This document shows, piece after piece, positions 31,221 to 57,780 of a stretch of 64,000 nucleotides of DNA. The DNA lies in contig OZ076409.1 of NCBI GenBank assembly GCA_964187785.1, forward strand, positions 86,428,001 through 86,492,000, written 5' to 3'. The notes below the pieces were generated by a model. The model was not told where the DNA came from. It did no database searches and was given only the letters and a program-made list of their open reading frames with translations. The DNA is from Amphiscolops sp. MND2022. Taxonomy: Eukaryota. The position numbers and the translations under genes were made by a program. Within the stretch, counting starts at the first letter, position 1; every line of letters starts with the position of its first letter.

Positions 31221-32203
31221 GGGGAATTCTCACACAGCAGAAGTCTCGTACAGGTAAATGGTCACTTGGCTTAATGCCATTTGGCTTAAAGTCATTTGGC
31301 TTAATGCAATTGGTCACATGGATTAATTTTTTTAAGCTAAGTGTCTCTGGTATTGGTCACTTGGCTTAAAGTCATTTGACTTAAAACCACTTAGTTGAAA
31401 ACACGTGGCATATTTTGTCGAATTTATCATTTTAACGTAGTCAGCGTATTATTATAACATGTCATATCAAGTACCCCTCGGGTATTTCCCCATTTCCTCT
31501 AGTGCCCTGCGGCCCCTTGGGGCCGCTCGAATTCCCATCTTGCTAAGCGAGGTCGAACAGGAGCAAAGACCTAGCGGGAACTGAGATCGCGAAGCGATCG
31601 TACTGGGAGCTGGTCTTTGCGACGGTGACATCGAGCGTGCATACACCGCATATGCCCCACATTATAATATTTCCGGGAGTTGACTTATTCATTCCGGGAG
31701 TTGGAATGAAGTTGGCTTTAATTTTGTGGTCACTTGGCTTAAAATTTTTAGGCCAAATGATTCGACGAAAAAATTAAGCCAAATGACTTTAAGCCAAGTG
31801 ACTTGTGACCCTCATACAGCAGAAAATGAAAATTCGGTCCCATACAGCCGAATATTTGTTAGTGCTTCAATCGGATTGCCTGAAGTTTCCAATCGAATTG
31901 AATTCTTTAAGTTGAAAACGCGTGTCAAATTTTGCCCGAATTATTACTATTACGTAGGCAGGTACGCTCACATACTTCTAGTGCCCTAAATGCAGGAGTG
32001 AAGCGGAGCGACGTGTCATTTGGCAATGCCTCAATGTTGTTACTTGGCGAAGGGAGCGAAGCGACCGAGCCATTCAACAAATATGCTAACCTTTCAAAGA
32101 AATCAAATTCCATACATACAAGCTGTAACAGCACTGAATGCTAGTAATTTGAATTCTGCTGTATGGGACCAAATTTTCATTTTCTGCTGTATGAATAGGC
32201 CCC
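31221..32203. mobile_element. GGGG-ended MITE with 8-bp TSD, carrying cassette A and a nested MITE
   Basis: TSD TCAGCGAC at 31213-31220 and 32204-32211. A 36-bp inverted repeat CATACAGCAGAAAATGAAAATT(C/T)GGTCCCATACAGC lies at about 31813 and about 32158-32193. Confidence 0.8.
31253..31810. mobile_element. Foldback-like MITE with modular TIRs, carrying cassette B
   Basis: TIRs built from GTCA(C/T)TTGGCTTAA subrepeats; imperfect 8-9-bp TSD CTCGTACA(G)/CTCATACA(G). Confidence 0.75.
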
Positions 32204-32983: not shown

Positions 32984-33332
32984 GGGTGGCTGTAAATAGG
33001 TCAAATTTTTCTGGTCGAAAGGACAGAGGTCGAACCTTTTGATCGAATTGCAGGGATCGAATGGAATGCCGTCGATTTTTATCGTATTTGTTGTATGGCT
33101 CGGACGCTTCGCTCCCTTCGCCAAGTAGCAACATTGAGGCATGGCCATATAGCACGTCGCTCCGCTTCGCTTCGCTCCAGCGTTCAGGGCAATAGGGGTA
33201 TGTGAACATATCTGAATACGTTATAAAAATTTCGATCCGAGTTGTTTCGATCCTATTCGAAAATTTGGTATGTCGACCTGAGGACTAACTCTGATTTTCG
33301 ATCCGGTTCCTTCGACCTATTTCCGCCCACCA
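32984..33332. mobile_element. 349-bp Mutator-like MITE, copy 1 (carries cassette A)
   Basis: TIR GGGTGG...AAATAGGTC; 9-bp TSD ACAAATGGG. Removing it restores the Penelope frame DETNGLALLDM. Confidence 0.9.
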
Positions 33333-33987: not shown

Positions 33988-35514
33988 TCATTAGGTCTAT
34001 CAGATCTGTCAGATCTATCCCCCCACTTAGATCTATCAGCAGCGTTCGACACCGTGGATCATGAAATACTTCTGTCAATTTTATTTCAAATTGGGATTAT
34101 TGGTCAGGCGCATTCCTTGATAAAATCCTACCTGAATGGTCGAACACAATGTGTCCTTATTGATGGAAGCTACTCTGAGGATAAATCTATTGAAACAGGT
34201 GTTCCTCAAGGATCGATCTTAGGGACAGTGCTCTTCATTCTATACTTACTCCCTTTGAGGTCTTTACTTGATGAATTTCTTGCTAGTTATCATATCTATG
34301 CTAATGACATAACGATTTACTTGGAATTTGATCTGGGGACAACCTTTGCCAATTTCCTGAAACATTAGAAGATAATTGCCAGTGATTTGAAACTATTAGC
34401 CGCCTTGAAAATAAAAGTAAGCAGTTCGAAAACTCAATGTATGTTCGTTACGAATCAAAGAACTCGCCTTCCCGAGACAATCACTATTGATGGGATCAGA
34501 ATTGAGATCAATGATAGTGTCAAAGTTTTGAGAGTTACTTTGGATAACAAGTTACGTTTCTCTTCTTTCGTCAACAGCACATGTGCGAAGTCCTACTATC
34601 ACCTCAGAAGGATAACATCAATTCGAAAATATTTGTCTTTCGACCTCACAAAGTTATTGATTCTCACTTTCGTTATCAGATTATTGTAACTCACTGTTAT
34701 ATGGTGCTCCGGACTACATGATTAAAAAATTGCAAAGAGTTCAGAATAGAGCAGCATGCCTCCTTTTTCACCAGAGAAATTCCAATGTTAACCTACTTTT
34801 GAATGAACTTCATTGGCTTCCTGTTGAAAAAAGAATTAAGTACAAAATCTTATGCTTCGTATACCGTCTTTATAATGACTTGCTTGTGCCTATTTACTTG
34901 TCGGTACCGTTTTTCAGGTATCAGCAACTTGATCAGTACGATCTGAGAAGTTCCAGAGAACGAAAATGGACTGTCAGAATTACCAACAATACCTATGGAA
35001 AACGATGCTTCTGGGTATCAGGCGCTGAATTGTGGAACTCACTACCATGTGATCTTGTATTGAGCCCTTCATATGACACTTTCCAAGCACGACTAAAGAC
35101 ATACGGGTGGCTGTAAATAGGTCGAATTTTTCTGGTCGAAAGGACAGAGATCGAACCTTTTGATCGAATTGCAGGGATTGAATGGAATGCCGTCGAATTT
35201 TATCGTATTTGTTGTATGGCTCGGACGCTTCGCTCCCTTCGCCAAGTAGCAACATTGAGGCATGGCCATATAGCACGTCGTTCCGCTTCGCTTCGCTCCT
35301 GCATTCAGGGCACTAGGGGTATGTGAACATATCTGAATACGTTATAAAAATTTCGATCCGAGTTGTTTCGATCCTATTCGAAAATTTGGTATGTCGACCT
35401 GAGGACTAACTCTGATTTTCGATCCCGTTGCTTCGACCTATTTCCGCCCACCCAAGACATACCTATTCTGAACGCTTTGAGTGTTAAAAAAGCGTCATTT
35501 ACATTTTGAACTTC
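33988..35514 (+). mobile_element. 5'-truncated L2-like LINE
   Basis: LDLSAAFDTVDH, GVPQGSILGTVLF, LQRVQNRAA, LHWLPVEKRIKYK, ELWNSLP; possible AACCC TSD. Confidence 0.9.
35105..35453. mobile_element. 349-bp Mutator-like MITE, copy 2 (carries cassette A)
   Basis: Near-identical to 32984-33332; 9-bp TSD AAGACATAC at 35096-35104 and 35454-35462. Confidence 0.9.
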
Positions 35515-35688: not shown

Positions 35689-36040
35689 GATGGACCTGGC
35701 CAAGCAGACAACACTTGCTAATTTGATGCTTCGGTTGCGACTAACTGTAAACGACACCGATTACTTAGCTTGACTGATATCGGAAAATGCTTCCCCATAA
35801 GCAGTGCATCCGTCCAAAAGGAACGGCCAAAAGGAAAGGTACCGCCCAAAAGGAACGGCCAAAAGGAAAGGTACCGTCCAAAAGGAACGGCCAAGAGGAA
35901 AGGTTTAATAGTGCCGTTCAGAATGTAATCCTGCCCTTTGGGACAATGATTTGGTATAAATAGAGTTGATTTCTTATCATTTATTCGTTATTAATTTAAC
36001 CTTCATTCAAATCAGTCGTCTTTTGTTATTCGACCCCACA
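35689..36040 (+). repeat. Gypsy 5' LTR (truncated; last 352 bp retained)
   Basis: Matches 41302-41646, ends CCCACA and contains a TATAAATAG box. Confidence 0.85.
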
Positions 36041-36043
36041 AAT

Positions 36044-36060
36044 TGGTGACCTCGACGTGA
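36044..36060 (+). promoter_or_regulatory. PBS complementary to tRNA-Trp
   Basis: TGGTGACCTCGACGTGA matches the complement of the eukaryotic tRNA-Trp 3' end TCACGTCGGGGTCA-CCA at 16 of 17 positions. Confidence 0.85.
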
Positions 36061-36890
36061 CGGAAGATCCGACACAATTGGAAGACTCTACCATTGCTTA
36101 TAATCACACATCTAACGGAGGTAGCGGTGATCGCACAAACAATGCTCAAGTGGGGAGAATAACAATCAAACCTCCAACTTCTTATAGAAGCAACCCGCAA
36201 GTCTGGTTCAGACAACTCGAGTCCCAATTTGCACTAGCAAATATCACCAGTTCCCAAACAAAGTTTCACCACGTCATGGGCGCATTACCAGAGGACGTCG
36301 CAATCAACATCCCACTGGACGTTACTTCTTACGAATCTCTAAAGGAGCAGATAATTGGAATCTATCAAAAAAGTCGACAGGAGTTATTGGAGGAGGCCTT
36401 AGGTTCAATTTCCCTTGACGGCCAAAAACCGTCAGTCTGTTTCCTACGCATAAAACGCAAATTAGAAGATTGCCATTTAACCGTCGATGACCAATTTTTA
36501 CGCCACAAATTCCTCCAAGCGTTACCCCCAACGACACTTGTTGCCCTGTCCGCACATCATAATTTGGCCTTGGACGATTTCGCTAAACTTGCGGATACGA
36601 TATACCAGTATTCAACGTTCGATTATCACGTAGCAGCAGTAAGACCCGATACTAAGCCCGAACATGATTCTGTTTCCCCGAACAGAAACTTTCAACACAA
36701 TCCTAGACAGCAAAAGGGAGGGATGTTTCCCTTCAGTGCGGGGCAAAAACCAAAAACTTGCCAATTTCACGTCTTCTACGCAAATAATGCCAAGCGGTGT
36801 AAACCCTGGTGTAAGTGTCCTGGTCAAAAACCACAGTTGATTGATGCTTCATCACGACCAGCAACCCCAAACAACCCAGCGTCAAACTAA
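36057..36890 (+). CDS. gag: Gypsy Gag
   Basis: [50 protein letters not shown] and terminal [18 protein letters not shown]. No ATG precedes the conserved domain; the listed GTG overlaps the PBS. Confidence 0.9.
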
Positions 36891-39800
36891 GAACCCCTAA
36901 CGTAGTGGCAGCTTGCACTGGGGGTGATTTATTCATTGAGATCGCTGCCTGTATCATTTCTAGCCAGCAAAAATTTCTTATAGACACAGGATCAATGGTG
37001 TCCATTGTTAAACCCAATTTAATCCATCCAGTTACTATTCTGCCTTCCAACGCAGTCCTATCCACCATTAAAGGTGACGCGTTGAACGTTTACGGAAAAG
37101 TTACTATACCAATTGAAATCCCTTCCTTACGACGGTGCATCAGCCATACCTTTTTTGTCGCTGACGTGTCGTGTAATATTCTTGGTATTGATTTCTTGTC
37201 GTCTACGAACGATTTCTCAATTGATTGCAAAAACGGCCGCCTCAAGGATAACACAACATTGTTGTCTACTGCAACTCAATTTAAAAAGTGCAACCACGTC
37301 TCTGTGAACAAAGTTGAGACAGTGATACCTGATATCGGAAACGACGAGCTGAAATCAATGATGATCAAAAATGCAGAAGTTTCCGGTGATGTTGATTTCA
37401 ACAGCACAGCTCAACACCAAACGCTACATCGTATTGAACTGACGGGTAAAGGCCCGTATGGCAGCCCGAGGCGTTTGTGCCCCGAGAAATACAGGATCGC
37501 CAAACAGTGTTTCGATTCCATGATAGCAACAGGGATATGTCGTCCATCATGCTGCCAATATGCCTCCCCATTGCATATGGTACCTAAAAAGGAACCTAAC
37601 GATTGGAGGCCTTGTGGAGATTACCGACGATTAAATTCAGTCACTAAAAGGGATTTCTACCCCCTTCCACAACTATCGGATTTCAATCTTTATGGCAAAA
37701 AAGTTTTTAGTAAGTTAGACTTAGTAAAAGCATACCATCAGATACCAGTACATCCCGATGACATAGAGAAAACTGCTGTGACAACACCGTTTGGTCTTTT
37801 TGAATTTCTACGAATGCCATTTGGTCTCCGAAATGCAGGACAGACATTCCAACGCTTCATGAACACAGTTTTCCAAGGATAAGATATGGTTTTCACCTTC
37901 GTGGACGACGTCCCAATTGCATCAGACGATATAACGACTCACTTGAAAGACATCGAAACGGTATTGGAACGCCTGAAGCAATACGGACTGCGCTGCTCTA
38001 TAAAGAAATGCGAATGGATGAAAAATGAGATCGAATTCCTCGGATTTTTGATCACTGCTGAAGGTTTACAACCCAAAGCGGACAAAGTCGAAGCTATTCA
38101 ACGATGGCCGTGTCCCACGAGTTACAAAAGTTTGCAAAGTATGATGGGAATGTTCTCTTTTTATCGACAACATGTTCCTCATTATGCAGAAATAGTCGAA
38201 CCTCTCCAAACGTTGCTCAATGATAGTCAGTTATCCCGTACTTCAAATTCGACTATCGACACACCACTGCGTTGGGAACCCTTCCACGATGACGCTTTGA
38301 TATTATTGAAGAACAAACTTTCTGAACGTACCATGTTACACAATTTGTCTCCAGATGGTACTCTCACTCTCACTACTGATGCTTCTGACAGAACAATTGG
38401 CGGAGTCTTACACGACAACAGAACGGACGGGACAAACGTGCCTCTAGCATTCTTTTCACGAAAATTATCTGTCGCAGAACGCAATTATTCTGCTTTTGAT
38501 AAAGAACTTTTAGCAATTTTTGCCGCAACACAGAAATTTCGACGGTTTATTGAAGGTCGTTACTGTGTCGTTTTTACCGACCACAAACCCATTGTTGCGT
38601 CCTTTCGAAAAACAACCGACCACTCCCCTCGACAATCCCGGCAGTTTTCGTTTTTGTCGGAATTTATTGACGACATTGTTCACATTGCTGGTGACAGCAA
38701 TGTGGTAGCTGATTGTCTATCACGTCCCGAAGAAGAAGAGAGTTGCGTACAACAGCCGAAACTTGTATCTGCTGTAACTTGTGACCCTTTCGACTTACAG
38801 GCAATCGCTGAAGCACAAACACAAGAGTTTAAGGAGGAAATGTGTCAGGTGTACAGTCAAGGCACCAAAATTGTTACTATTCCACCAGACATAAAATTAC
38901 TCTGCGATAATACTCTCATTCCCCGCCCAATAGTTCCACCAGAGTTACGGAGAAAACTGTTCCTCAACTTTCACAACATGTCACATCCGAACTGGAAGGC
39001 AACTAATAAACTAATTTCAGCAGGTTTCACCTGGCCGCATTTGGCTTCGGACGTGAAGGCTTGGTGCAAGGAATGTTTACACTGTCAGAAAAGCAACGTT
39101 ACACGACACACAATAACGCCTCCTGCATCAACCGCAGGTAATCCAGCCCGTTTCCAGCATTTACATTTGGACATAGTAGGTCCTCTGCCTGCAGTGTCGA
39201 ATTGCCCGAATAGATATATTCTTTCCTTCATCGATCGATCAACAAACTGGATAGAAGCAACTCCCATTAGTTCTATCACCGCAGAAGTCGTGGCTGAAAC
39301 ATTTATTTCTACTTGGTTTTCGCGGTTCGGAGTCCCACTCTACATTACTGCCGATCAAGGACGCCAGTTCGAATCTGATTTGTTCTCCGAATTATCCAAA
39401 TTGCTTGGTTTTGCACGTCTTCGTACTACACCTTATCACCCCCAAGCCAATGGTAAAATCGAAAGGTACCATCGAACTTTAAAAGCTTCTTTAACAGCCT
39501 CACCTTTACCGTGGACTCAAGCTTTACCGGTCGTTTTATTCAGTCATAGAATTCTGCCCAATGCTATGGGAATATCCCCTTTTCAACTGGTAACCGGATC
39601 GGATGCTTTTGTTCCCACTATTTTTGAAGAAAAACAAGGACATGCATTCACTCGTGATTACGTCTCTAAACTGGCCACGCATTTGCAGTTATTACAATTT
39701 ACAACACCTTCATTGACTCCTCATTCCGGTTCCAAGCAGTATGTTCCTCGGGACCTTCAGGAGTGCAGTCATGTTTGGCTACGAGTTGATCGTACCAGGC

Positions 39801-40156
39801 GTCCCTTGGAAGCACCCTATAGTGGTCCCTTTCCTGTTCTGGAACGCAATGATAAAACAATGTTGATACAATGCACAAACGGCCCTACCCGAGTGAGTTT
39901 AACCAGAGTTAAACCTTGCTACCTTCCATCAGAGCCACATATCAAACCAACTGTGGCAAAATTGTCAGAGGACAATGGGTCCTTTTGTTCTTGTGGGGGA
40001 CCTTTTAACACCGATATGATCGGCTGCGACGGTCCTAATTGTGTCATACAATGGTTTCATTTTCCGTGTGTAGGAGTTGACAAATCTCCTCAAGGCAAGT
40101 GGTTTTGTCCTACTTGCAGGGAACAACGAGTACAGAAAACCGTTTCATTCGCATGA
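36845..40156 (+). CDS. pol: Gypsy Pol (PR-RT-RNase H-IN-PHD) with one in-frame TAA at 37880-37882
   Basis: ORFs 36905 and 37886 share a frame. Motifs [82 protein letters not shown], then a PHD finger. Confidence 0.92.
39983..40117 (+). other. ING-type PHD finger (C4HC3) at the integrase C-terminus
   Basis: [45 protein letters not shown]; all eight zinc ligands are present. Confidence 0.92.
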
Positions 40157-40492
40157 TATATGTCAACACTCCGTTATTTCATGGGGGACCTCTGTAACCT
40201 ACCCACCCTGGATATCGGAAAAATTATTTCAATTCCAATTTTAGTCACCTATTTTTTTTAGACAACACATTATATTAAACGTATAATTCAAGCCGTGGTA
40301 TTGATGGGCAACAATGCATTGAGACAACTTATCATGATTACGTAATTACGTAGTAGTATGATGACTCATATGAGTCATTTCAGAAATCACCAGAAATCAG
40401 AAATGTGACCACACTTCAAAACGACACAAAGGATCGTTTTCAACCCATGGAATCACTTCTCTTCAAAAAACAGCACCAAACAGTCGGGAGAA

Positions 40493-41413
40493 ATGCAAAT
40501 CAGCTCACACGAAATGTCCCTTCTGCAACTCTACAGGACCGCCAAAATGCAGCTCGGAGGGATGTTACCAAACCTCGCCAATTTGACATTGATGTCTATT
40601 ACGCCGCAGAATGGAATGGTTGCTATTACACAGTCAACTGAGTTGTTCGCTCAAGTGCCGGTGGACAATGAGCAAATTGTTAGCAATCCTGCACCTAGAA
40701 CACTTCCCCGCAATCCGACACCACAGAAACAGCGTGAACACCACTTATCCAGCTCTTCGGATTCGAGCAGCAGTTCGTCCGAGACCGATTAAGAACCACC
40801 AACCGAAAGGCCGCAGAAGAAAAAGGACGGCAAGAAAGAACGGTCCTCGGCCGCCAAAGAATTGGCACGACCCCCAGCTAACGAGTGGCACAACAACCTG
40901 GTACCGCTGAATAAGCTGGCCAGCCTGTCCACATCGCAGATAAGCAAATTAGACGATGTCGACGATCAAATCCGTGACCTCACGCCGGAGATTGATGACA
41001 TCAACCTTCCCTTTCAAAGTGAAGGTTTAGCCAAAAAAGTGCCTCCAGGAGCCAAATTTGGTAATTGTGTTATTTCACGAAAGAGTGGCATGACAGGTTT
41101 TGAGATCAACAATATGTGCCGAGCCATGGGACGTTTCGCTGGTTTGAAGTACGACCAGATTGAAGCAAACGACAAGCCAAATTACATGACCCGAGCTACT
41201 TATGCTGCAGTGTTGGTTCACCGTCCGTGGTTGGTGGCGCAAATAATCGACATCCCGAGGTCAACATTGCGGAAAAGAGTCAAGGTTTTTGCGAAAAAAG
41301 TGATGGACCTGGCCAAGCAGACAACACTTGCTAATTTGATGCTTCGGTTGCGACTAACTGTAAACGACACCGATTACTTAGCTTCACTGATATCGGAAAA
41401 TGTTTCCCCATAA
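40493..41413 (+). CDS. Orphan ORF of about 306 codons inside the long LTR; one internal TAA at 40790-40792
   Basis: ORFs 40493 and 40862 are in the same frame and the intervening codons are open. Ser/acidic and basic linker, then a globular-looking C-terminal half; no recognised domain. Confidence 0.6.
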
Positions 41414-41422
41414 GCAGTGCAT

Positions 41423-41518
41423 CCGTCCAAAAGGAACGGCCAAAAGGAAAGGTACCGCCCAAAAGGAACGGCCAAAAGGAAAGGTACCGTCCAAAAGGAA
41501 CGGCCAAAAGGAAAGGTT
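41423..41518 (+). repeat. 3 x 32-bp tandem repeat in the LTR (also at 35810-35905)
   Basis: Unit CCG(T/C)CCAAAAGGAACGGCCAAAAGGAAAGGTA, located between the ORF stop and the TATA box. Confidence 0.9.
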
Positions 41519-42323
41519 TAATAGTGCCGTTTAGAATGTAATCCTGCCCTTTGGGACAATGATTTGGTATAAATAGAGTTGATTTCTTATCATTTATTCG
41601 TTATTAATTTAACCTTCATTCGAATCAGTCGTTATTCGACCCCACAGTAGCATCTACCTTTATCCTTAGAACTCTACTATCTGTGCTTTTTAGCCTTTCT
41701 TTATTTTATGTTTTATACTTGTGTTTTTTAGATAAACTGAAGATGATCTCATAAATGATCGAAAAGCTTCTTTTGAACACAATGCTTTTTCTCTTTCACG
41801 AAAATTTTGTAGTATTTTAGGACTTTTCGGCTTTATTTCGGCTGTTTTGCAATGAAAATAATTATATGTCATAACAGATACAGTCAACTCCTGTTAATTA
41901 GTATCCGAATAGTTCGGATCTTCGTTTAATTTCGGATGCATCCGAGACCCCCGTTTCAGGATGTCCGAAGGAATGCCATCTGGTCAGTTCGTATTTTTCA
42001 TCATTCGTACTATTTTATTCGGTCCCTAGCAATACGAATTAGGTGGATTCAACTATATCCAAAAATTGCCTTTGAGGTTCAACAGTGTTGCAATACAATT
42101 TCATGCATCCCTGAGCTAGTACATGACCTGATTCCCGCATCAAATAAATCTGTCTTTGTTGATATTGCTGTTTATGCAGCGATTAGTCCTTTCAAATTAT
42201 TGTATATTGAGTGTCAGCAATAATAGTGTTTTCAGTAGGCGCTTTTTGGTAGAAAGTGTAAGACTTACATTTTTTTCGTCAGTCACCCAGTAACGTCCAC
42301 TATTATAAATTTCATCGAACAAC

Positions 42324-43049: not shown

Positions 43050-45975
43050 CAGGGATTGGAAAGCCATAATGGCCATAACCATATATGGCCATAAATATAG
43101 GGAAATTATTTATGGTACTGGGTTTAAAAATGGCCATTATTTATGGAAAGCCATCCATATATGGCACCCTATTTTCACTATATAATTTTAAAGTTTCATA
43201 ATGATCAACCAATAATTTTTCAACTTATAATTTTCAGATTGACATGGATCTCCAAAATAAATCAGTTGTTGAGTTCTTTTTCACTCCTGTTGGTGATGAC
43301 ATTTTCAAGTGCAGGGATAGGAAAAATTGATTGCAATTATTTTTTTATTTTTTAAGAGAACCAATCAATTAATTGAATTTGAGAAAAAATCAATCAATTA
43401 TTGCACTTTACAGCAAATAATTGGTTTCTTTCTCAGCTTGAGACAGAACATCATTAACTGTTCTTATGTCCCAAAATCGCTTATTTGTTCTTAAATATAA
43501 TTGTTCTTCGAGATTCGTCGGGTTCAATCGTTGCCGGAAATCACTCGATGCAATACCAGCGCTACTAAAAAACGTTCTAGAATGTTTGAAGTTGACAAAA
43601 TGAAGCGGGTATCGGCATATTTTGTCGATGGTGCTTGTTTCTTCTTGTTCAGAATCATGCTAGCAAAATCATCACAAGTATCTGGGACGTCTTCTTCCAC
43701 CACGATGTGCTTTCTGAGGTTTTTACATGCCAGTTGCTCGTCAATCGTCATTTCTTTTTCCTTACCATCCTGAATTTTCACTATTCCAGATTCGAAGTTG
43801 GGGCTTCTAATTATTCTCGCAGTGGGAGACAAATACTTGTCAGAACCATCAAGATCGGGGAATTTCCGTTTGATTTCATTGAAAAGAAGCCGGACGCAAG
43901 AAGCATCAGTACTCTCTCGTTGCAAAGCCATGGTAACTGAATCTAATGTCGCCAATTTTTGTTGAACTTCGGAAAATGTGGCATTTTCTTTCGGAGATGG
44001 AATGAATTCCAATGTTTTCTTCATCAAAGTACACCATAAATTATTTCAGCTGCATATAACGGTTTATCATTTGATGTGTGCTAGACCAACGTGTTATATT
44101 GGCTTGAATAGGTCTCAGTTGTGTGAATTGCCTCAAGGTTGTTGGCTTTCTTCGTAAGGCTGACGTAATTATCAATCCTCTGCTGCTTACCATCATCTTT
44201 GTCGTAGTCCGGGTGTTGGGTTTTTATGTGGTTCAGCAAGTTAGTCCAACCACTTCCTTTTTTTGCTTCATCTGCTTTTTGCATTGACATTGCCAAATGT
44301 CCGGCTCATCTACAGGCGCAGGCTGATGGAAGTATTGCATGCAGATGGCCTTAATTGGCTTGGATGTCATATCACAACCTGAAAATGTGAAAAAAAAGTT
44401 ATTCAACCCAAAGCTGCTTTGCATGACATTGAAAAATGAAAATGAAGCATTTCACTCAGACATGTCAGATTGTAGTGGAAACGAATTTTTCAATTAATTG
44501 ATACTTCACCAATCAATTATTCAATTATTGGTTTCGGGCCCAATCAATTAATTTTGCCAATTAATTGCAATTAAATTAATTGGCAATCAATTATTTCCAA
44601 TCCCTGTTCAAGTGTCTATGCAATAAACGGATCAAGCAAAGGCTACACCAATCTCATGAGTCACCTGAAGAATGTCCAAAAAGAAACTTGGGAGAACGAC
44701 TATAGGAAGTCAAAATTTTTCGGTGGATGGAATGGGTGATTCTAGAAGTTCGTGAGTTCAGTTTCGTTGAAAAACCTCTGGTGCGTAAGAATACCAAGTT
44801 GGAGCCCATTTGTCAAAAAACGCTCCAAATGTATATCGACTTAGTTACTGTTCAAGTGGAGGAAAAATTGCCGACGCTCTACCAAGCAACCTTGGAAATA
44901 TTGTGGATGGATGGTCGCAGCAAAGTTCAGCAGATCGATTTGTTGCATTTTATTGATAAATGTGATTCGGAAATCGCTGAGCTCCTCCGGAACCCTTCTG
45001 TAGAATTGAAGATACAAGATCTGATTGTCGATTTCACTGATATACAATCAGTCATGAATCTTATTTTGATAAGTTTTGCGGTCTGCTTTTGTTGCAAAAA
45101 CTGATGTTTCGAATGTTAATTAAATGCTTAGTTTGAGGCACCCGATGTTGATTGGTGGACTTGATCAAGTGAAAGCGAACAGAACAACAATTAGGTCGAA
45201 AACAAAACAAACAAAGGTGTGAGATTCATGATTCAAAGTTCGATATATTATGCAACAATGGAAAGTTCTCGTTTGAAATGTCAAGTACATGACTCAATCG
45301 GTAACTTTGAAACTTCAAGAAGAGTCTGTTACAATGGCAGAAGTTCGGCGCCTTTTCGATGCTCTCATTCTCAGGTTCCATTCCATGTGCAAGTATCTCA
45401 GTGAGCGTGCTGATGTTGTCGAAAATCGGCAATTCGAAGCGGCTGTTGTGAGGTCTTTTACGACTCCCTATGAAGACGTGAAATTGACTGAAAAAGTTCA
45501 TCTGGGACGTTTTAGTACACAGCGTGAATCCATTTCACCTGCAAGTCAGCCTGACACTGGTAACAAATCATTCACAGAGGCGGTCCTCCTGAACCCATTC
45601 CCGCATGTAAAACGATGAATAATTTGAATTGGGTCCCACTGACTTCCAATATTGTGGATAGAGTATTCACCAAAGTCAAAAATATCAGAACCCCATTGCG
45701 TAACGGAATCCTTCCAATTCATTTTGAGGAGAATTTGTATCTAGTTGTCAATCAAAAGTATTGGAACATTGATACTCTGTCCTAGGTTTTTCAATCTGAT
45801 TGATTGATTGATAATTCTGAAATTTGCTCTTCGATTTTTTTCAAGTTTGTTTCTGTAGACCATATATATGCCCAATATGGCCATTATTTATGGAAAAAGA
45901 GAAAAATATGTATATATTTGTGGTAGTGAAATTTCAGGTACCATATTTATGGCCATACCATAATTCCAATCCCTG
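43050..45975 (+). mobile_element. hAT DNA transposon (outer), degenerate transposase
   Basis: TIR CAGGGATTGGAA; 8-bp TSD TTTTCCGC at 43042-43049 and 45976-45983; ATGGCCATA subterminal repeats. ORF from ATG 43244 reads FKC|LCNK..KGYTNLMSHL, FSFVEKPLVRK, WVPLTSNIVDRVF. Confidence 0.9.
43312..44606 (-). mobile_element. hAT DNA transposon (inner, internally deleted), nested in opposite orientation
   Basis: TIR CAGGGAT(A/T)GGAAA; 8-bp TSD TTCAAGTG at 43304-43311 and 44607-44614; CAATTAATT subterminal repeats. Encodes WQCQCKK..GSGWTNLLNHIKTQH and RFILSTSNILERF. Confidence 0.9.
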
Positions 45976-46062: not shown

Positions 46063-48476
46063 CTACTTCACTTATAGTTGAAGTATATAGCTACTTGACT
46101 ATCTTGGCTCCATCCACTACTTGACTATTTTAGTTACTTGAACTGCACTTGCCAAAACTCCACCATGGCGCAGTTGGTTGTGCGTCTGCCTGGCAGACAC
46201 GAGGTCGTGGGGTTCGAACCCGGGCTGATGCGTCATCTTTTTAGCGGAAAATATCCCGGTGTTTAGCGGGCGTCCTGTTAACTTATTGGATAGCTTCGTA
46301 CAAGAAAGTGTCGTGGAGACTAGAGCAAATATTCAAAAACTTCCTTTGGCCAACCAAGGCTAATTTGAAGTCGATGGCGTCAACTGGCTAGGGTGCGAAA
46401 AATGTCGAACCTCGGATTGGCAGTTCGTGTATGGGTTACAGCTTCGATGATTTCAAATCTCCAAATGTAAATTTTCACTCAGTCCCTGGAGACTGCCAGA
46501 GTAATGATGACCAAAATTCACGAGATGAAGACAACATTAAGAAGAAATTCAGAATGAGGTCCAACTTTCGTCAACTGTCAAAGCAGTAAAGCCTAAAAAC
46601 CCTCAAGGTAAATTTTATTTGGATATTTTGAAATCCAAATATGACCCCCTCCCAAGTTAGCTGCGTTCTTCGCGAATTTCGGATTACTAAGCGGGAGAAA
46701 ATAAAACTCGGTGAATCATTGAGCATGCGGAAGAAGAGTTGGAATCGGCCATGAGAGTCTTGAGCTTTGAAGCCAAACAGCTCATCTTCCAGACGCTTGT
46801 GTGCCAACTGGTTAGACAACTAACCGGCTTGTGCTCCGGAATATTTTACTGAGAAATTTCTGGCTCTTCTTCCATCTACTTCACTTATAGTTAGCTACTT
46901 GACTATCTTGGCTCCATCCACTACTTGACTATTTTAGTTACTTGAACTGCACTTGCCAAAACTCCACCATGGCGCAGTTGGTTGTGCGTCTGCCTGGCAG
47001 ACACGAGGTCGTGGGGTTCGAACCCGGGCTGATGCGTCATCTTTTTAGCGGAAAATATCCCGGTGTTTAGCGGGCGTCCTGTTAACTTATTGGATAGCTT
47101 CGTACAAGAAAGTGTCGTGGAGACTAGAGCAAATATTCAAAAACTTCCTTTGGCCAACCAAGGCTAATTTGAAGTCGATGGCGTCAACTGGCTAGGGTGC
47201 GAAAAATGTCGAACCTCGGATTGGCAGTTCGTGTATGGGTTACAGCTTCGATGATTTCAAATCTCCAAATGTAAATTTTCACTCAGTCCCTGGAGACTGC
47301 CAGAGTAATGATGACCAAAATTCACGAGATGAAGACAACATTAAGAAGAAATTCAGAATGAGGTCCAACTTTCGTCAACTGTCAAAGCAGTAAAGCCTAA
47401 AAACCCTCAAGGTAAATTTTATTTGGATATTTTGAAATCCAAATATGACCCCCTCCCAAGTTAGCTGCGTTCTTCGCGAATTTCGGATTACTAAGCGGGA
47501 GAAAATAAAACTCGGTGAATCATTGAGCATGCGGAAGAAGAGTTGGAATCGGCCATGAGAGTCTTGAGCTTTGAAGCCAAACAGCTCATCTTCCAGACGC
47601 TTGTGTGCCAACTGGTTAGACAACTAACCGGCTTGTGCTCCGGAATATTTTACTGAGAAATTTCTGGCTCTTCTTCCATCTACTTCACTTATAGTTAGCT
47701 ACTTGACTATCTTGGCTCCATCCACTACTTGACTATTTTAGTTACTTGAACTGCACTTGCCAAATATCCACCATGGCGCAGTTGGTTGTGCGTCTGCCTG
47801 GCAGACACGAGGTCGTGGAGTTCGAACCCGGGCTGATGCGCCATCTTTTTAGCGGAAAATATCCCGGTGCTAAGCGGGCGTCCTGTTAACTTATTGGATA
47901 GTGTACAAGATTTCGTACAAGAAAGTGTCGTGGAGACAAGAGCAAATTTTCAAAAACTTCCCTTGGCCAAGCATGGCCAATTTGACGTCGATGGGGTCAA
48001 CTGGCTAGGGTGCGAAAAATGTCGAACCTCGGTTCACGGTTCGTGTATGGGTTACAGCGTCGATGATTTCAAATCGCCAAATGTTATTTTAACTCAGTTC
48101 CTGGAGACTGCCAGAGAAGTGACCAAAATTCACGAGATGAAGACCACATTAGGAAGAAATTGAGAAAGACGTCCACCTTCCGTCAACTGTCAAAGCAGTA
48201 AAGCCTAAAAATCCTCAAGGTAAATTGTATTTGGATGTTTTGAAATCCAAATATGACCCAAGTGAGCTGCGTTCTTCGTGGATTTTGGAATACAAAGCGG
48301 GAGAAAATAAAAACCGCAGGTGAATCATTGAGCATGAGGAAGAAGTTGGAATCGGCCATGAGAGTCTTGAGCTTTGAAGCCAAAGAGCTCCTCTTCCAGA
48401 CGCTTGTGTGCCACCCAGTTAGACAACTGACCGGCTTGTGCTCCGGAATATTTTACTGAGAAATTTCTGGCTCTTG
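46063..48476 (+). repeat. Tandem array of three 804-bp units, each a spacer plus a tRNA-headed SINE-like element
   Basis: Heads CACCATGGCGCAGTTGGTT...GGTTCGAACC at 46161, 46965 and 47769 (804-bp spacing). Units 1 and 2 appear identical; the body of unit 3 is clearly diverged. Confidence 0.9.
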
Positions 48477-50221: not shown

Positions 50222-50623
50222 GGGGATGGTTCAAATCGTAGAATATTCAAAGCGTCGAAAGCAGTTTACACGCAGTAAATACTGCGCGTCATAGTCACGT
50301 GACCAAACTTTCATTCAATGAACCAATCAAATTCAGTGAAATGAATACAGCACAAGCGACGAACTAATTACGATAACGTAGTCAGCTATGTCCACATACT
50401 CCTAGTGCCCTAAATGCAGAAGCGAAGCGGAGCGACGTGCCATTTGACCATGCCTCAATGTTGCTACTTGGCGAAGGGAGCGAAGCGACCAAGCCATACA
50501 ACAAATATGCTAACCTCTTCAAATTATAACCTGAAAATAATCGCTGCTACGGAATTCTTTCGACGCTTTTAATAGCTTTGATTTTTTCGACGGTTTGAAT
50601 ATTCTACGATTTGAATAGTCACC
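50222..50623. mobile_element. 402-bp Mutator-like MITE carrying cassette A
   Basis: Inverted repeat TTCAAATCGTAGAATATTCAAA(G/C)CGTCGAAA; perfect 9-bp TSD TACTCTAAT at 50213-50221 and 50624-50632. Confidence 0.85.
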
Positions 50624-53600: not shown

Positions 53601-56013
53601 TTTGACTCACGAAACTAAAAAACAAGAAAGGTAGTTTAATTTCTTTGGAAATTTTCTTGGTTCAGAAATTTTGTTCGATTGTTTCTTGTGCAGCCATTGC
53701 TATGCTTCAGGTAATACTGTAGTTGCAATTTATTTAGCAATATTTTACCACGAGTGATTATCATTTGATTGCCAATATTGAGTATTTACAAAGTCCACTT
53801 TTTCAATTTCGGAAATGTAGGCCACCATTTTATGCTATCGTGTTGATAAGGCTGTTTCGTAAGCATAAAACATGATAAACACGGTACATTCAATTAAATA
53901 AGAAATCTTCTGATATGAATATCTTGAGTGTTGCGTTTACCAGACAAATCGGTGCCTGGAAACCACCCACCGCAGCTATAGCCTGTTTCTATTTTTTTCT
54001 GCTGAGCTTTTGTACATTGGATCGTTATATGAAAATGTCAATTGCAGATTTTCATCTAAATTAATGCTCTTTTCGCATTAATTGAATTTTTAAGCAACGC
54101 TGACTTCTCGTGACTTGATGAGTTTTTGCCCATGAGTGTCACTACACTATGGAAAGCCAGTTTTTAGCAACTAAGCAACCGAGTTTTCTCCGCCCGTATC
54201 CCATATTTGCTCGTAGTGGTTTTTCGGCGGATGCCAATTAGAATTAAATGAAGAGCTTTTTGCTAACTTGCGTGATTGTAGATAATCCTTAGTCAAGCTT
54301 GGCTCTGATTGCTACAGCTTTTTCAAAATTCTTCATCAGTTGTTCGTTTAGAACGACCCGGCCACTTAACGTTGAAGCGTTGTTTGAAAGTGTTGTCTCG
54401 ACTGATCCGTATGTTGCATTATTGCGTTTCTCTCGATTGTCTAGGCTTCCATTATCGACTGTTTTCTTTATCAATCCTGCTTTTTATACTGTTATTCTGT
54501 AACATTGAGCCATTCTATCGAGGCGGGCGCTACAGCGAGACTTGTTTTCAGGAAACATTCACCTTGTGCGTTGCAGATGATGGCAAATTCCAATGCAAAA
54601 TGTTGGAATCAAGTTCATAAAAGACTGCCATTGTTGCCTTTATTTTCCGTTTCTTTAGTAGCTACAATTCAGTATGACGTAATATACAATGCAAATGTGA
54701 TAGGGGTGAATCTTTAAGAGGGAGCTGAATACATTAGGATAGGAAAAAGTTATGCTACGTGACATTTCATTTTGGTGTTTGAACCTGCAAGTCGTTACCC
54801 GTTGACTTTTTTCTGTAACTGTTACAAGTACCAGGTATGTATATGCACCTGGGCTGATGAATTTATACTGCTAAAAGTCTATAAAAACCTTCAATTCAGC
54901 TGGCTTCATTGTTCTTTATCAAATGAAGTCAACAAGTCTTGTTAGCTCAGTCAACTTTTTCTGACTTGAACGCGTAACGTGAGCTTTAAAAAGCTTGCAC
55001 GACCTCTTCTGGGTTAGTTGGCGGTTGCGAAGGTACGGAATTTTAATGAAGAATTCGGGTCATCAATTGACATAAAGGTTGTATTTCAAGCGACTTAGAG
55101 GGGATGCGAGAAACACCAAAAAATTAATAGGTCGGCGTCCTTTTTCCCTGGAAGCAAGTTGACGTTCGAGTGTAGCTACGGAGGCGTCTTTATCAGCTTT
55201 ATTTTACACATTGACTCAGGGTTGGCGGTAATTTCCTTTTCTAAATTAATGCTTTCCATTCTATACATCTAGACTCTATTTAAATACGTAAGTTTGCGAA
55301 TTATATTGCCAATTTACCTATGGCATTGAATATGCGATATTGGGAATTTCAATAAGTGCGGACTGCTCTCACTGTGGACTGTGTTGAAATGAAATTATCG
55401 CATGTCGTTATATACACCACTCATGCCCTTGCTTACCAATACCTAATTGCCTCCGTTCTGTATGTTGTGCCTCGTTGCCCATTACGTCATAAGTGATCAT
55501 GGTAGTTATCGCTTGAAGATGTTCCCTCTCTCCATATGCCTGCAAATTTGCCGCTAGCCATTTACCAAATTAACGCTACGTCTACATTTGCGATGCAAAA
55601 TGTTATTACAGTTTCCCCGTGTTCCTTCCCACCACTCATATTCAGTGTGTGGGTTTTGAAGACAGTTTTTGCATTTTAAAACATTCATAATTATAATTCT
55701 TGCTGCAATCCCGGAAGCTACTGAACAGCTCCGAGATTATGCGCTTTTTACTAGGGTATTTTATTACATACCATGTCACTTGTTTTCCGCTTACAGACTG
55801 GAACGGAGGCATTTATTTGTTAATAGCGAACGAAATTCGAGAAAGTTGTTCAAACTAGAACGTGATAACTAACAGGAAGTGGTTACTTTATAAGCTTGTC
55901 TTTCTTCTTGAGTTCAGCAAATAGTATTTGAGCATTGATTATTACAGCATTCAATAATTTATTTGATTGAACCAAACGAGAGCTGCGACTGCTGCTGCTA
56001 AGTAATTCAAGTC

Positions 56014-57780
56014 ATGTCCACTACTAGTAGTGTTACCTTGTGCCCAACAATCCTTATCGATCAGCCCCCGCCGCCCGCTGATGGCGAAATGAGTGTTGCC
56101 AGCTCTGCATCTGTTATTGCGACAAGGCCAGTGTTTGTTGATGGTTGTTGCATTGAAAAGCCCAACAATGTTTGTGCTTCTAGTCAACCAACCGGTGATA
56201 AGCAGGAAAAGAAATCTAAAAAATTCCTGTCTGCCCCCGAGTTGAATTTGTTTCGCCTGCGACGCCGACGTCATTCATCGTCGGATACGACGGCGATAGC
56301 ATCAAATGACGCGTCATTTTCGTCCACTCTTTCAATCTCACCGTCCACTGCTGGTCAGTCCTCCAGCAGTCTTGTGGCCATGTTTCCAACCAGAAGACTT
56401 TCATCTGGCGAAGCCTCCACGTCAAGTTACCTCCAACATAATCATCGCCCTAGAAGTGCCACTACACTCAGTATTTCTAATGTTTTCAAAAAATCTAAAT
56501 CTAAAACAGTTTTAGATGAGAGAGATAATGGTTCGCTGTTGTCTCATTCCACGTCTATGTATCAGCAGAGCGGAGACGACCACAGACGGAAAAACAGCAG
56601 CGACCAGACCAATGCCACAGCAAAGCCAGCTAGGAGTAGAAAATATTCCAGCAGCAAGCGAGAATTCCCTCCGGTTTCTTTGCCAGCGAATCCAGCAGCT
56701 TCTGCAGACCAAGAATGTACCACCGCAGAAAATGTTTCCATCATCTTTACTGACTATTCCCTCGTTGAGCCGGCGACAGGTTTCGTTGACAGTTGCAATA
56801 CAAAGAAAGAATTGTGTCAAAAAATGCCACCCACTAATGTCGAGCCCTCAGTTTCAATAACATCTCTTCAGGAAACCGATCTGTACACCGACGATGATTA
56901 CGATGACCTTATTGACAAACAGTATTCAACAACATTAGACAATACAGAGTTTGAATCAACAATGGTGGAAGGTTTTGTTGATGATGAAAACAAAGCCAAC
57001 TCGTCAGGTCAACGTAACAAGAAGCGAACTCTATCATTATCCGTGCCATCAACCAAAGATTTGTTGAAGAACCCAACTCGTTCTCTGACCGAGAACTTTG
57101 CGAATTTGAGAAATCGACTTCAGGGTTTCAGTAGCGAAGGTGCAACTCAAACTTACACAAGCCGACATGTTTCGCAACTCAATGTGAGTAGTCAGCCAAA
57201 AAATAGACAAATAAAACAGTCTCAGACATTATCGAATTTCATCTCATCTAAACATGATTCTAATTTCTTATCAAATGGATGTTACGTCATTCAATCATCA
57301 AAACGTTCATTTTTGTTCAGCTCTGCAGCCAAATATACATCTTTACCAATGGTCACTTGCAAATGTATCATAGCATCTGATGCAGATAAACACGGCAAAG
57401 CTATTTTTGAGAGACTCAAATCAATCAAAAGCAATGCACATAAAGGATCGGATGGCACTGCTGAGTCATCGATGGGAGACGTCATAGGAGAGGTTGTGTA
57501 TGATACCACGAGCATGGGCTTCATGAGAGCAGCCACGACGAGAGTGATGAAACTGTCTGACGCCGTCGACCTCATGAATGTGTTGGAACCCGCTGTGAAT
57601 AATGTCTTGTTTTTCTCCTTCTTGGGGTGCTATGGCCATGGTTTGACTTTTGTGCCAAGCAAACGAAATCTTGAGAAGCTGCTGTTGCAATTGGAGATAC
57701 CATATGATGACGATGAACTTGATGACAAGGACTCACGACGCATTTTATACAATCTAGTCGTTCTCCGGTTAGTAGTTTAA
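56014..57780 (+). CDS. Host protein-coding ORF or large exon, 588 aa; Ser/Thr-rich disordered N-terminus and folded-looking C-terminus
   Basis: 1767-bp uninterrupted ORF with ATG start and no transposon motifs. A possible GTTAGT donor at about 57767 means the true C-terminus may be spliced. Confidence 0.75.
   Translation: MSTTSSVTLCPTILIDQPPPPADGEMSVASSASVIATRPVFVDGCCIEKPNNVCASSQPTGDKQEKKSKKFLSAPELNLFRLRRRRHSSSDTTAIASNDASFSSTLSISPSTAGQSSSSLVAMFPTRRLSSGEASTSSYLQHNHRPRSATTLSISNVFKKSKSKTVLDERDNGSLLSHSTSMYQQSGDDHRRKNSSDQTNATAKPARSRKYSSSKREFPPVSLPANPAASADQECTTAENVSIIFTDYSLVEPATGFVDSCNTKKELCQKMPPTNVEPSVSITSLQETDLYTDDDYDDLIDKQYSTTLDNTEFESTMVEGFVDDENKANSSGQRNKKRTLSLSVPSTKDLLKNPTRSLTENFANLRNRLQGFSSEGATQTYTSRHVSQLNVSSQPKNRQIKQSQTLSNFISSKHDSNFLSNGCYVIQSSKRSFLFSSAAKYTSLPMVTCKCIIASDADKHGKAIFERLKSIKSNAHKGSDGTAESSMGDVIGEVVYDTTSMGFMRAATTRVMKLSDAVDLMNVLEPAVNNVLFFSFLGCYGHGLTFVPSKRNLEKLLLQLEIPYDDDELDDKDSRRILYNLVVLRLVV

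What the first reader, a model, noticed from the sequence alone, without database searches (positions are those of the whole stretch)
40193..41646. Orphan ORF of about 306 codons inside an unusually long Gypsy LTR
Seen: a PPT-like GGGGGA and TGTAAC follow the pol stop by about 30 bp, implying a 1454-bp LTR. Within it, 40493-41413 is one frame broken only by a TAA at 40790, ending upstream of the 32-bp repeats and TATA box. The 5' LTR remnant holds the last 36 or so codons, with a TCA-to-TGA change. The protein has a Ser/acidic and a Lys/Arg-rich linker, then a distinct domain (KFGNCVISRK...CRAMGRFAGLKY...YAAVLVHRPWL). It shows no env-like transmembrane segment that I can see. Established: U3-encoded accessory genes exist in retroviruses (MMTV sag, HIV nef overlap) but are unusual in Metaviridae. 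Inference: an accessory gene such as a transactivator or anti-silencing factor, possibly working with the PHD-integrase.
Basis: partly seen in the sequence, partly recalled or inferred. Interest (0 to 1): 0.75.

Follow-up and report, generated by a model that had tools for sequence, protein, structure and literature searches.

The report
Gypsy retrotransposon's own DNA-binding gene
This is a broken copy of a conserved third gene that a lineage of Gypsy jumping genes carries behind its enzymes; its protein is predicted to be a nuclear DNA-binding regulator that likely switches the element on, as accessory genes of complex retroviruses do.

Summary
The reading frame is real, but it is no orphan. 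8 of 15 listed members of a 25-member cluster run open through the window's stop. Relatives at 29-30% identity exist, one on a contig of the same length and source as a 58%-identical Gag. So it is an old accessory gene of a CsRn1-type Gypsy lineage; the window copy is dead. Its C-terminal ~170 residues fold confidently, with no transmembrane stretch. Three members weakly hit helix-turn-helix families at one site; no structural match is significant. The 1454-bp LTR is not established. 14 of 15 other Gag-bearing contigs show one copy of the gene, and an independent copy joins foreign sequence where the window's 5' LTR begins. This favours a ~346-bp LTR overlapped by the last ~37 codons. Against that: a canonical purine tract follows pol, and 23 of 39 contigs with the gene have no listed Gag. 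Best mechanism (0.45, inferred): a foamy-virus-Tas-like regulator made from an internal promoter. No DNA of other copies and no RNA data were obtained.

The parts
35689..36040 (+). 5' LTR as present; its left end lacks the TG and shows no target-site duplication
   Evidence: 340 matches, 5 mismatches, one 7-nt gap to 41302-41646; flanks compared
36044..36055 (+). primer-binding site of tRNA-Trp type
   Evidence: 11 of 12 bases match the CsRn1-type site printed in PMC2582038
36057..36890 (+). gag with DUF7041 and a CX2HX9CX3C motif
   Evidence: Pfam E 3.7e-16; motif found
36845..40156 (+). pol (protease, RT, RNase H, integrase) in the -1 frame to gag, with an in-frame stop at 37880-37882
39986..40120 (+). 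PHD-like finger at the integrase C-terminus
   Evidence: Pfam PHD E 0.0036, below the curated cut-off
40181..40195 (+). G-rich polypurine-tract-like site followed by TGT at 40193: candidate upstream LTR start, in use or vestigial
40193..40492 (+). 300-bp non-coding spacer, candidate internal promoter: two AP-1-type sites (40362, 40371), one TTACGTAA palindrome (40338), a 12-mer at 40211 shared with the LTR
   Evidence: motif positions; post-hoc shuffle fractions 0.0012, 0.0062 and 15 of 2000; function inferred
40493..41413 (+). accessory ORF3, 306 codons, broken by a stop at 40790-40792 and a small in-frame deletion in this copy
   Evidence: start region conserved in P0049 and P0040
41225..41284 (+). 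predicted helix-turn-helix within the folded C-terminal domain
   Evidence: helices 125-132 and 136-156 of the model; weak Pfam HTH hits at this site in 3 of 6 proteins
41286..41302 (+). T5 run, purine run and TG at 41301: candidate downstream priming site and start of the short LTR
   Evidence: junction of P0044 at codon 41300
41301..41646 (+). 3' LTR, short form (346 bp): 12-mer at 41389, six CCAAAAGGAA repeats 41427-41513, TATAAA 41568, end CCCCACA
   Evidence: end fits the CsRN1 3' motif in PMC3601003

Best explanation
The stretch is a dead copy of a conserved third gene of a CsRn1-type Gypsy retrotransposon, whose product is predicted to be a nuclear helix-turn-helix DNA-binding protein that likely activates the element's own promoter. 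Shown: the gene, its open natural copies, its distant relatives and the lack of a membrane anchor. Predicted: a folded C-terminal domain with a helix-turn-helix, behind a disordered Ser-rich and basic linker that would carry a nuclear signal. Inferred and untested: the 300-bp spacer with bZIP-type sites acts as an internal promoter, the protein binds a site in U3 (the shared 12-mer or the six repeats) and raises transcription from the TATA box, as foamy-virus Tas does.
Against: No HTH hit reaches a curated cut-off, and 3 of 6 proteins scanned have none. All structural Z are below 5, which the tool calls a common level; Foldseek found nothing at E 0.001. No transcript, localisation or binding data. 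Spacer motifs were picked after looking. For the LTR: the window's 5' copy lacks TG and a 4-bp duplication; a canonical purine tract and TGT follow pol; 23 of 39 ORF contigs have no listed Gag, of which at most 6 can hide under one 7-contig Gag record; same-contig pairs exist (P0041/P0048 93%, P0003/P0035 96%). Ten of 25 cluster members were not listed, identical LTR copies would be counted once, and contig length is only a proxy for contig identity.
Confidence: 0.45

Rival explanations
1. Same protein, opposite or indirect effect: it binds the element's DNA as a repressor or as an anti-silencing factor of the VANC kind, not as a direct activator.
For: An HTH gives no sign of effect. Sequence-specific anti-silencing proteins of transposons are known in plants (PMC13547354 passages). 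Repeated short motifs in U3.
Against: No family or fold match to VANC or MAIN was seen; the layout resembles complex retroviruses more than Mutator elements.
Confidence: 0.2
2. It is an RNA-handling factor like HIV Rev or Cer1 CERV that helps export or package unspliced genomic RNA.
For: An animal LTR retrotransposon does encode such a nuclear accessory protein (PMC10309623 abstract). Ser-rich and basic stretches suit phosphorylation and RNA binding. A T-run plus AG at 40252-40261 could be a splice acceptor.
Against: The conserved, confidently folded part carries the HTH-like segment; no RNA-binding family was hit.
Confidence: 0.15
3. Layout rival: the LTR always starts at 40193 (1454 bp), the whole gene lies in U3 like MMTV sag, and the window's 5' LTR is simply cut. 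(Probability of this layout; it does not exclude the best mechanism.)
For: Canonical purine tract and TGT 36 nt after pol; no TG and no duplication at the 5' copy; 23 of 39 ORF contigs lack a listed Gag, as solo LTRs would; same-contig pairs.
Against: Gag-bearing contigs should show two copies; 14 of 15 show one, and the exception is three copies broken at the same point. P0044 joins foreign sequence within 2 nt of where the window's 5' LTR begins.
Confidence: 0.2
4. It is an integration or chromatin-targeting helper that works with the PHD-bearing integrase.
For: Co-occurrence with a PHD-like finger in the window; DNA-binding fold predicted.
Against: No test of an interaction; whether distant ORF-bearing relatives have the PHD was not seen.
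Confidence: 0.1
5. It is a captured fragment with no function, carried passively.
For: Most listed records are broken or partial.
Against: Full-length open relatives at about 30% identity with both end domains kept; broken copies are expected after insertion.
Confidence: 0.04

Closest known systems
Foamy-virus Tas/Bel region
   Same: [quoted passage not shown] Size of about 300 aa and overlap of the bel region with U3 are recalled, not from a call.
   Different: Host element is a Gypsy without env; no Pfam hit to any retroviral accessory family at E up to 1; promoter and activation are untested here.
CsRn1 clade of Ty3/Gypsy (CsRn1, PwRn1, AgCR, Kabuki, Boudicca)
   Same: tRNA-Trp primer site, CX2HX9CX3C Gag motif, -1 gag/pol overlap, LTR end motif and ~330-bp LTR size.
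   Different: The passages read describe gag and pol only; a search for CsRn1 + ORF3 + retrotransposon gave 1 paper, a database article not opened. Here there is a PHD-like finger and a non-env ORF3.
Non-env ORF3s of bdelloid rotifer LTR elements and additional ORFs of plant elements
   Same: Family-specific extra ORF between pol and the 3' LTR, some nuclear and proposed as regulators (PMC5408684; PMC7264820).
   Different: Those are esterases, exonucleases, coiled-coil or membrane proteins, or antisense ORFs; this is a sense ORF with a predicted HTH overlapping U3.
Oikopleura Tor3b/4b internal promoter; C. elegans Cer1 CERV
   Same: Animal LTR elements with a third gene made from a promoter after pol (PMC4402516) or with a nuclear accessory protein (PMC10309623).
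   Different: Tor's third gene is a membrane Env; CERV is made from a spliced RNA and exports RNA. Neither was compared by sequence here.
MMTV sag and HIV nef (recalled)
   Same: Gene inside U3 (sag) or overlapping the purine tract and U3 (nef).
   Different: Membrane-associated immune modulators of vertebrate retroviruses; only the layout is alike.

Membership tests
CsRn1 clade | tRNA-Trp primer-binding site | tested here: met
   11 of 12 bases match the site printed in PMC2582038
CsRn1 clade | Gag motif CX2HX9CX3C | tested here: met
   found in 5 of 5 Gags tested, the window's included
CsRn1 clade | 4-bp target-site duplication | tested here: inconclusive
   flanks differ, but the 5' end looks damaged
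CsRn1 clade | LTR end motifs TGTGGYG ... MSYYAMA | tested here: inconclusive
   3' end CCCCACA fits; neither candidate start fits fully
CsRn1 clade | RT phylogeny with named members | not tested
   no named reference RTs were in hand; only a quick Gag tree of unnamed relatives
Env / env-like ORF3 | signal peptide and transmembrane anchor | tested here: not met
   best 19-residue hydropathy 1.05; soluble helical model
Helix-turn-helix proteins | HTH profile match above cut-off | tested here: inconclusive
   best E 0.0045, 17.1 bits against a cut-off of 22; 3 of 6 proteins hit at the same site
Helix-turn-helix proteins | structural match to an HTH domain | tested here: inconclusive
Foamy-virus Tas | sequence homology to Tas/Bel families | tested here: not met
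   no such Pfam family at E up to 1 among 8 and 19 members scanned
Foamy-virus Tas | internal promoter and activation of the LTR | not testable with these tools
   no RNA holder listed
U3-encoded genes (sag type) | whole ORF present in both LTRs | tested here: inconclusive
   window: no; 14 of 15 other Gag contigs show one copy, but 23 of 39 ORF contigs lack Gag; no DNA of other copies

The most novel reading that the evidence does not exclude
This Gypsy lineage encodes its own transcription factor and uses two plus-strand priming sites, one on each side of that gene, so that it makes either a short LTR or a long LTR carrying the gene; recombination of long LTRs would then scatter solo regulator genes through the host genome. 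This would reconcile one copy per gag-bearing element with many gag-less copies and with both purine tracts.
Probability: 0.2. Interest if true: 0.8.

Novelty: new variant of a known kind. Interest (0 to 1): 0.55.

Why it matters
Self-encoded transcriptional regulators are a mark of complex retroviruses; Gypsy elements are thought to rely on host factors. A conserved, non-env, HTH-type third gene in a CsRn1-type lineage, kept down to 30% identity, would be a tractable case of a simple retrotransposon regulating itself, and a new protein family with no significant match in Pfam, PHROGs or the PDB. If both priming sites are used, LTR length would be a switch and solo LTRs would spread a regulator gene.

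Full report
1. Observation. The window holds a Gypsy element at 35689-41646: gag with DUF7041, pol in the -1 frame with an in-frame stop at 37880-37882, and a PHD-like finger ending the integrase. Pol stops at 40156; a G5 run and TGT follow, the TG at 40193. The frame 40493-41413 has 306 codons and one internal stop at 40790-40792. Only 41302-41646 is repeated upstream, at 35689-36040, with 5 mismatches and one 7-nt gap. The 5' copy lacks the TG that precedes the match in the 3' copy, and the flanks show no duplication.

2. The ORF is a family. The C-terminal 206 residues found 19 proteins among 574 candidates, 17 among 1.84 billion representatives, and a profile found 33 among 7841 candidates. 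The top cluster has 25 members; of the 15 listed, 8 are 260-291 aa and run open through the window's stop to the same end. One member, P0031, is the window's own product (99.5%). A divergent subfamily (P0049, 41% over 202 aa) keeps the same start region, as does P0040. P0040 (297 aa) and P0047 (301 aa) are full-length relatives at 30% and 29%. Open frames at this distance imply selection (inference; dN/dS could not be run). The window copy is dead.

3. It travels with the element. A Gag search gave 85 proteins among 684 candidates. I used contig length as a key, which is a proxy. P0047 and Gag P0070 share source and length 5379; P0070 is 58% identical to the near-identical Gag P0062. P0049 and Gag P0121 share 157796. 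Of 24 contigs with an own-family Gag, 16 have a listed ORF record. The element meets the CsRn1 marks that I could test: tRNA-Trp primer site, CX2HX9CX3C motif, -1 overlap (PMC2582038 passages) and the LTR end motif (PMC3601003 passages). That paper places the clade in invertebrate animals, so the host is likely one (inference). An RT tree was not made.

4. Where does the LTR start? For a short LTR: (a) of the 15 Gag-bearing contigs other than the window's, 14 show no overlapping second ORF record; the exception has three copies broken at one point. If both LTRs held the gene, older copies should show two diverged records; five hidden pairs among the 25 cluster members would escape a list of 15 with probability 0.075, three with 0.25. 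(b) P0044 has an unrelated N-terminus and starts to match (83%) at codon 41300, within 2 nt of where the window's 5' copy begins; as several other fragments have junctions elsewhere, this is modest evidence. (c) A T5 run and a purine run precede TG 41301, and 346 bp fits the clade's 330. For a long LTR: (d) the tract behind pol is canonical and rare in the window; (e) the 5' copy lacks TG and duplication; (f) 23 of 39 ORF contigs have no listed Gag, at most 6 explained by one 7-contig Gag record, though the Gag search covered only 154-490 aa whereas the ORF had three searches; (g) same-contig pairs exist. The table holds 50 own-family records and leaves out six divergent-subfamily records, the distant relatives, P0044 (no contig length), sister-family Gags and unlisted members. 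My odds, by judgement: short LTR with vestigial upstream tract and gag-less derivatives 0.5, both starts in use or used in turn 0.3, long only 0.2.

6. Mechanism. The 5' LTR transcript would not place this ORF first, so it needs a splice or its own promoter (inference). The 300-bp spacer holds two AP-1-type sites and a TTACGTAA palindrome, and shares a 12-mer with U3; shuffles give 0.0012, 0.0062 and 15 of 2000, all chosen after looking. I commit to a Tas-like loop: host bZIP factors would fire the internal promoter, the protein would enter the nucleus, bind U3 and raise gag-pol transcription (0.45). Rivals: repressor or anti-silencing factor 0.2, RNA export 0.15, integration helper 0.1, no function 0.04. 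None of these steps was observed.

7. Known systems. Foamy viruses have an internal promoter and Tas (PMC7828637 figure legends). Tor4b elements start env RNA in the space after pol (PMC4402516 passages). Cer1 encodes the nuclear CERV (PMC10309623 abstract and outline). Rotifer and plant elements carry varied extra ORFs (PMC5408684 and PMC7264820 passages). PHD fingers occur on Ginger1 transposases (PMC2836005 passages). VANC context came from PMC13547354 passages. Passages of PMC12801592, PMC6338049 and PMC8220671 added nothing on an ORF3 in this clade. MMTV sag and HIV nef are recalled. Nine searches showed no report of this family; the library lacks most subscription papers. Two earlier notes of this scan describe analogous regulators in fungal Gypsy LTRs; they are unchecked, and sequence look-ups found no look-alike.

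8. Verdict. A real, conserved, undescribed accessory gene of a CsRn1-type Gypsy lineage; a new variant of a known kind. Function and LTR boundary are open and directly testable. Interest 0.55.

Noticed in passing
window 39986-40120: The integrase ends in a PHD-like finger, where chromoviruses carry a chromodomain (recalled); it could guide integration to histone marks.
   Followed up: partly
proteins P0041, P0048, P0049: Three records of the divergent subfamily stop at the same point at the start of the folded domain, while P0037 reads on: an inherited break or a split gene.
   Followed up: no
proteins P0167, P0161: Two Gag copies break at the same residue; P0167 runs on into the reverse strand of the primer site and LTR end (window 36052-35999), suggesting a shared inverted rearrangement.
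   Followed up: no
protein P0153: One copy has Gag and protease in one frame (452 aa); most copies need the -1 shift.
   Followed up: no
window 46088-48475: Three-copy tandem repeat of period about 804 bp, the first two copies identical in the blocks shown.
   Followed up: no
window 32984-33331 and 35105-35452: A 348-bp repeat at 97% identity lies just upstream of the element, with inverted partial copies at 31948-32089 and 50373-50513; probably a small non-autonomous transposon.
   Followed up: partly
window 8900-35100, 43500-45100: Dense decayed transposons: by my reading of the frames (names recalled, not scanned) LINE, Copia, BEL/Pao, pogo-like and hAT-like remains.
   Followed up: no
window 56002-57780: A 592-codon Ser-rich open frame, likely a large exon of a host gene.
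   Followed up: no
Gag relatives P0067, P0069, P0074: Close Gag relatives lie on 4.3-4.9 kb contigs, too short to hold gag-pol plus the ORF: they either lack it or it was assembled apart.
   Followed up: partly
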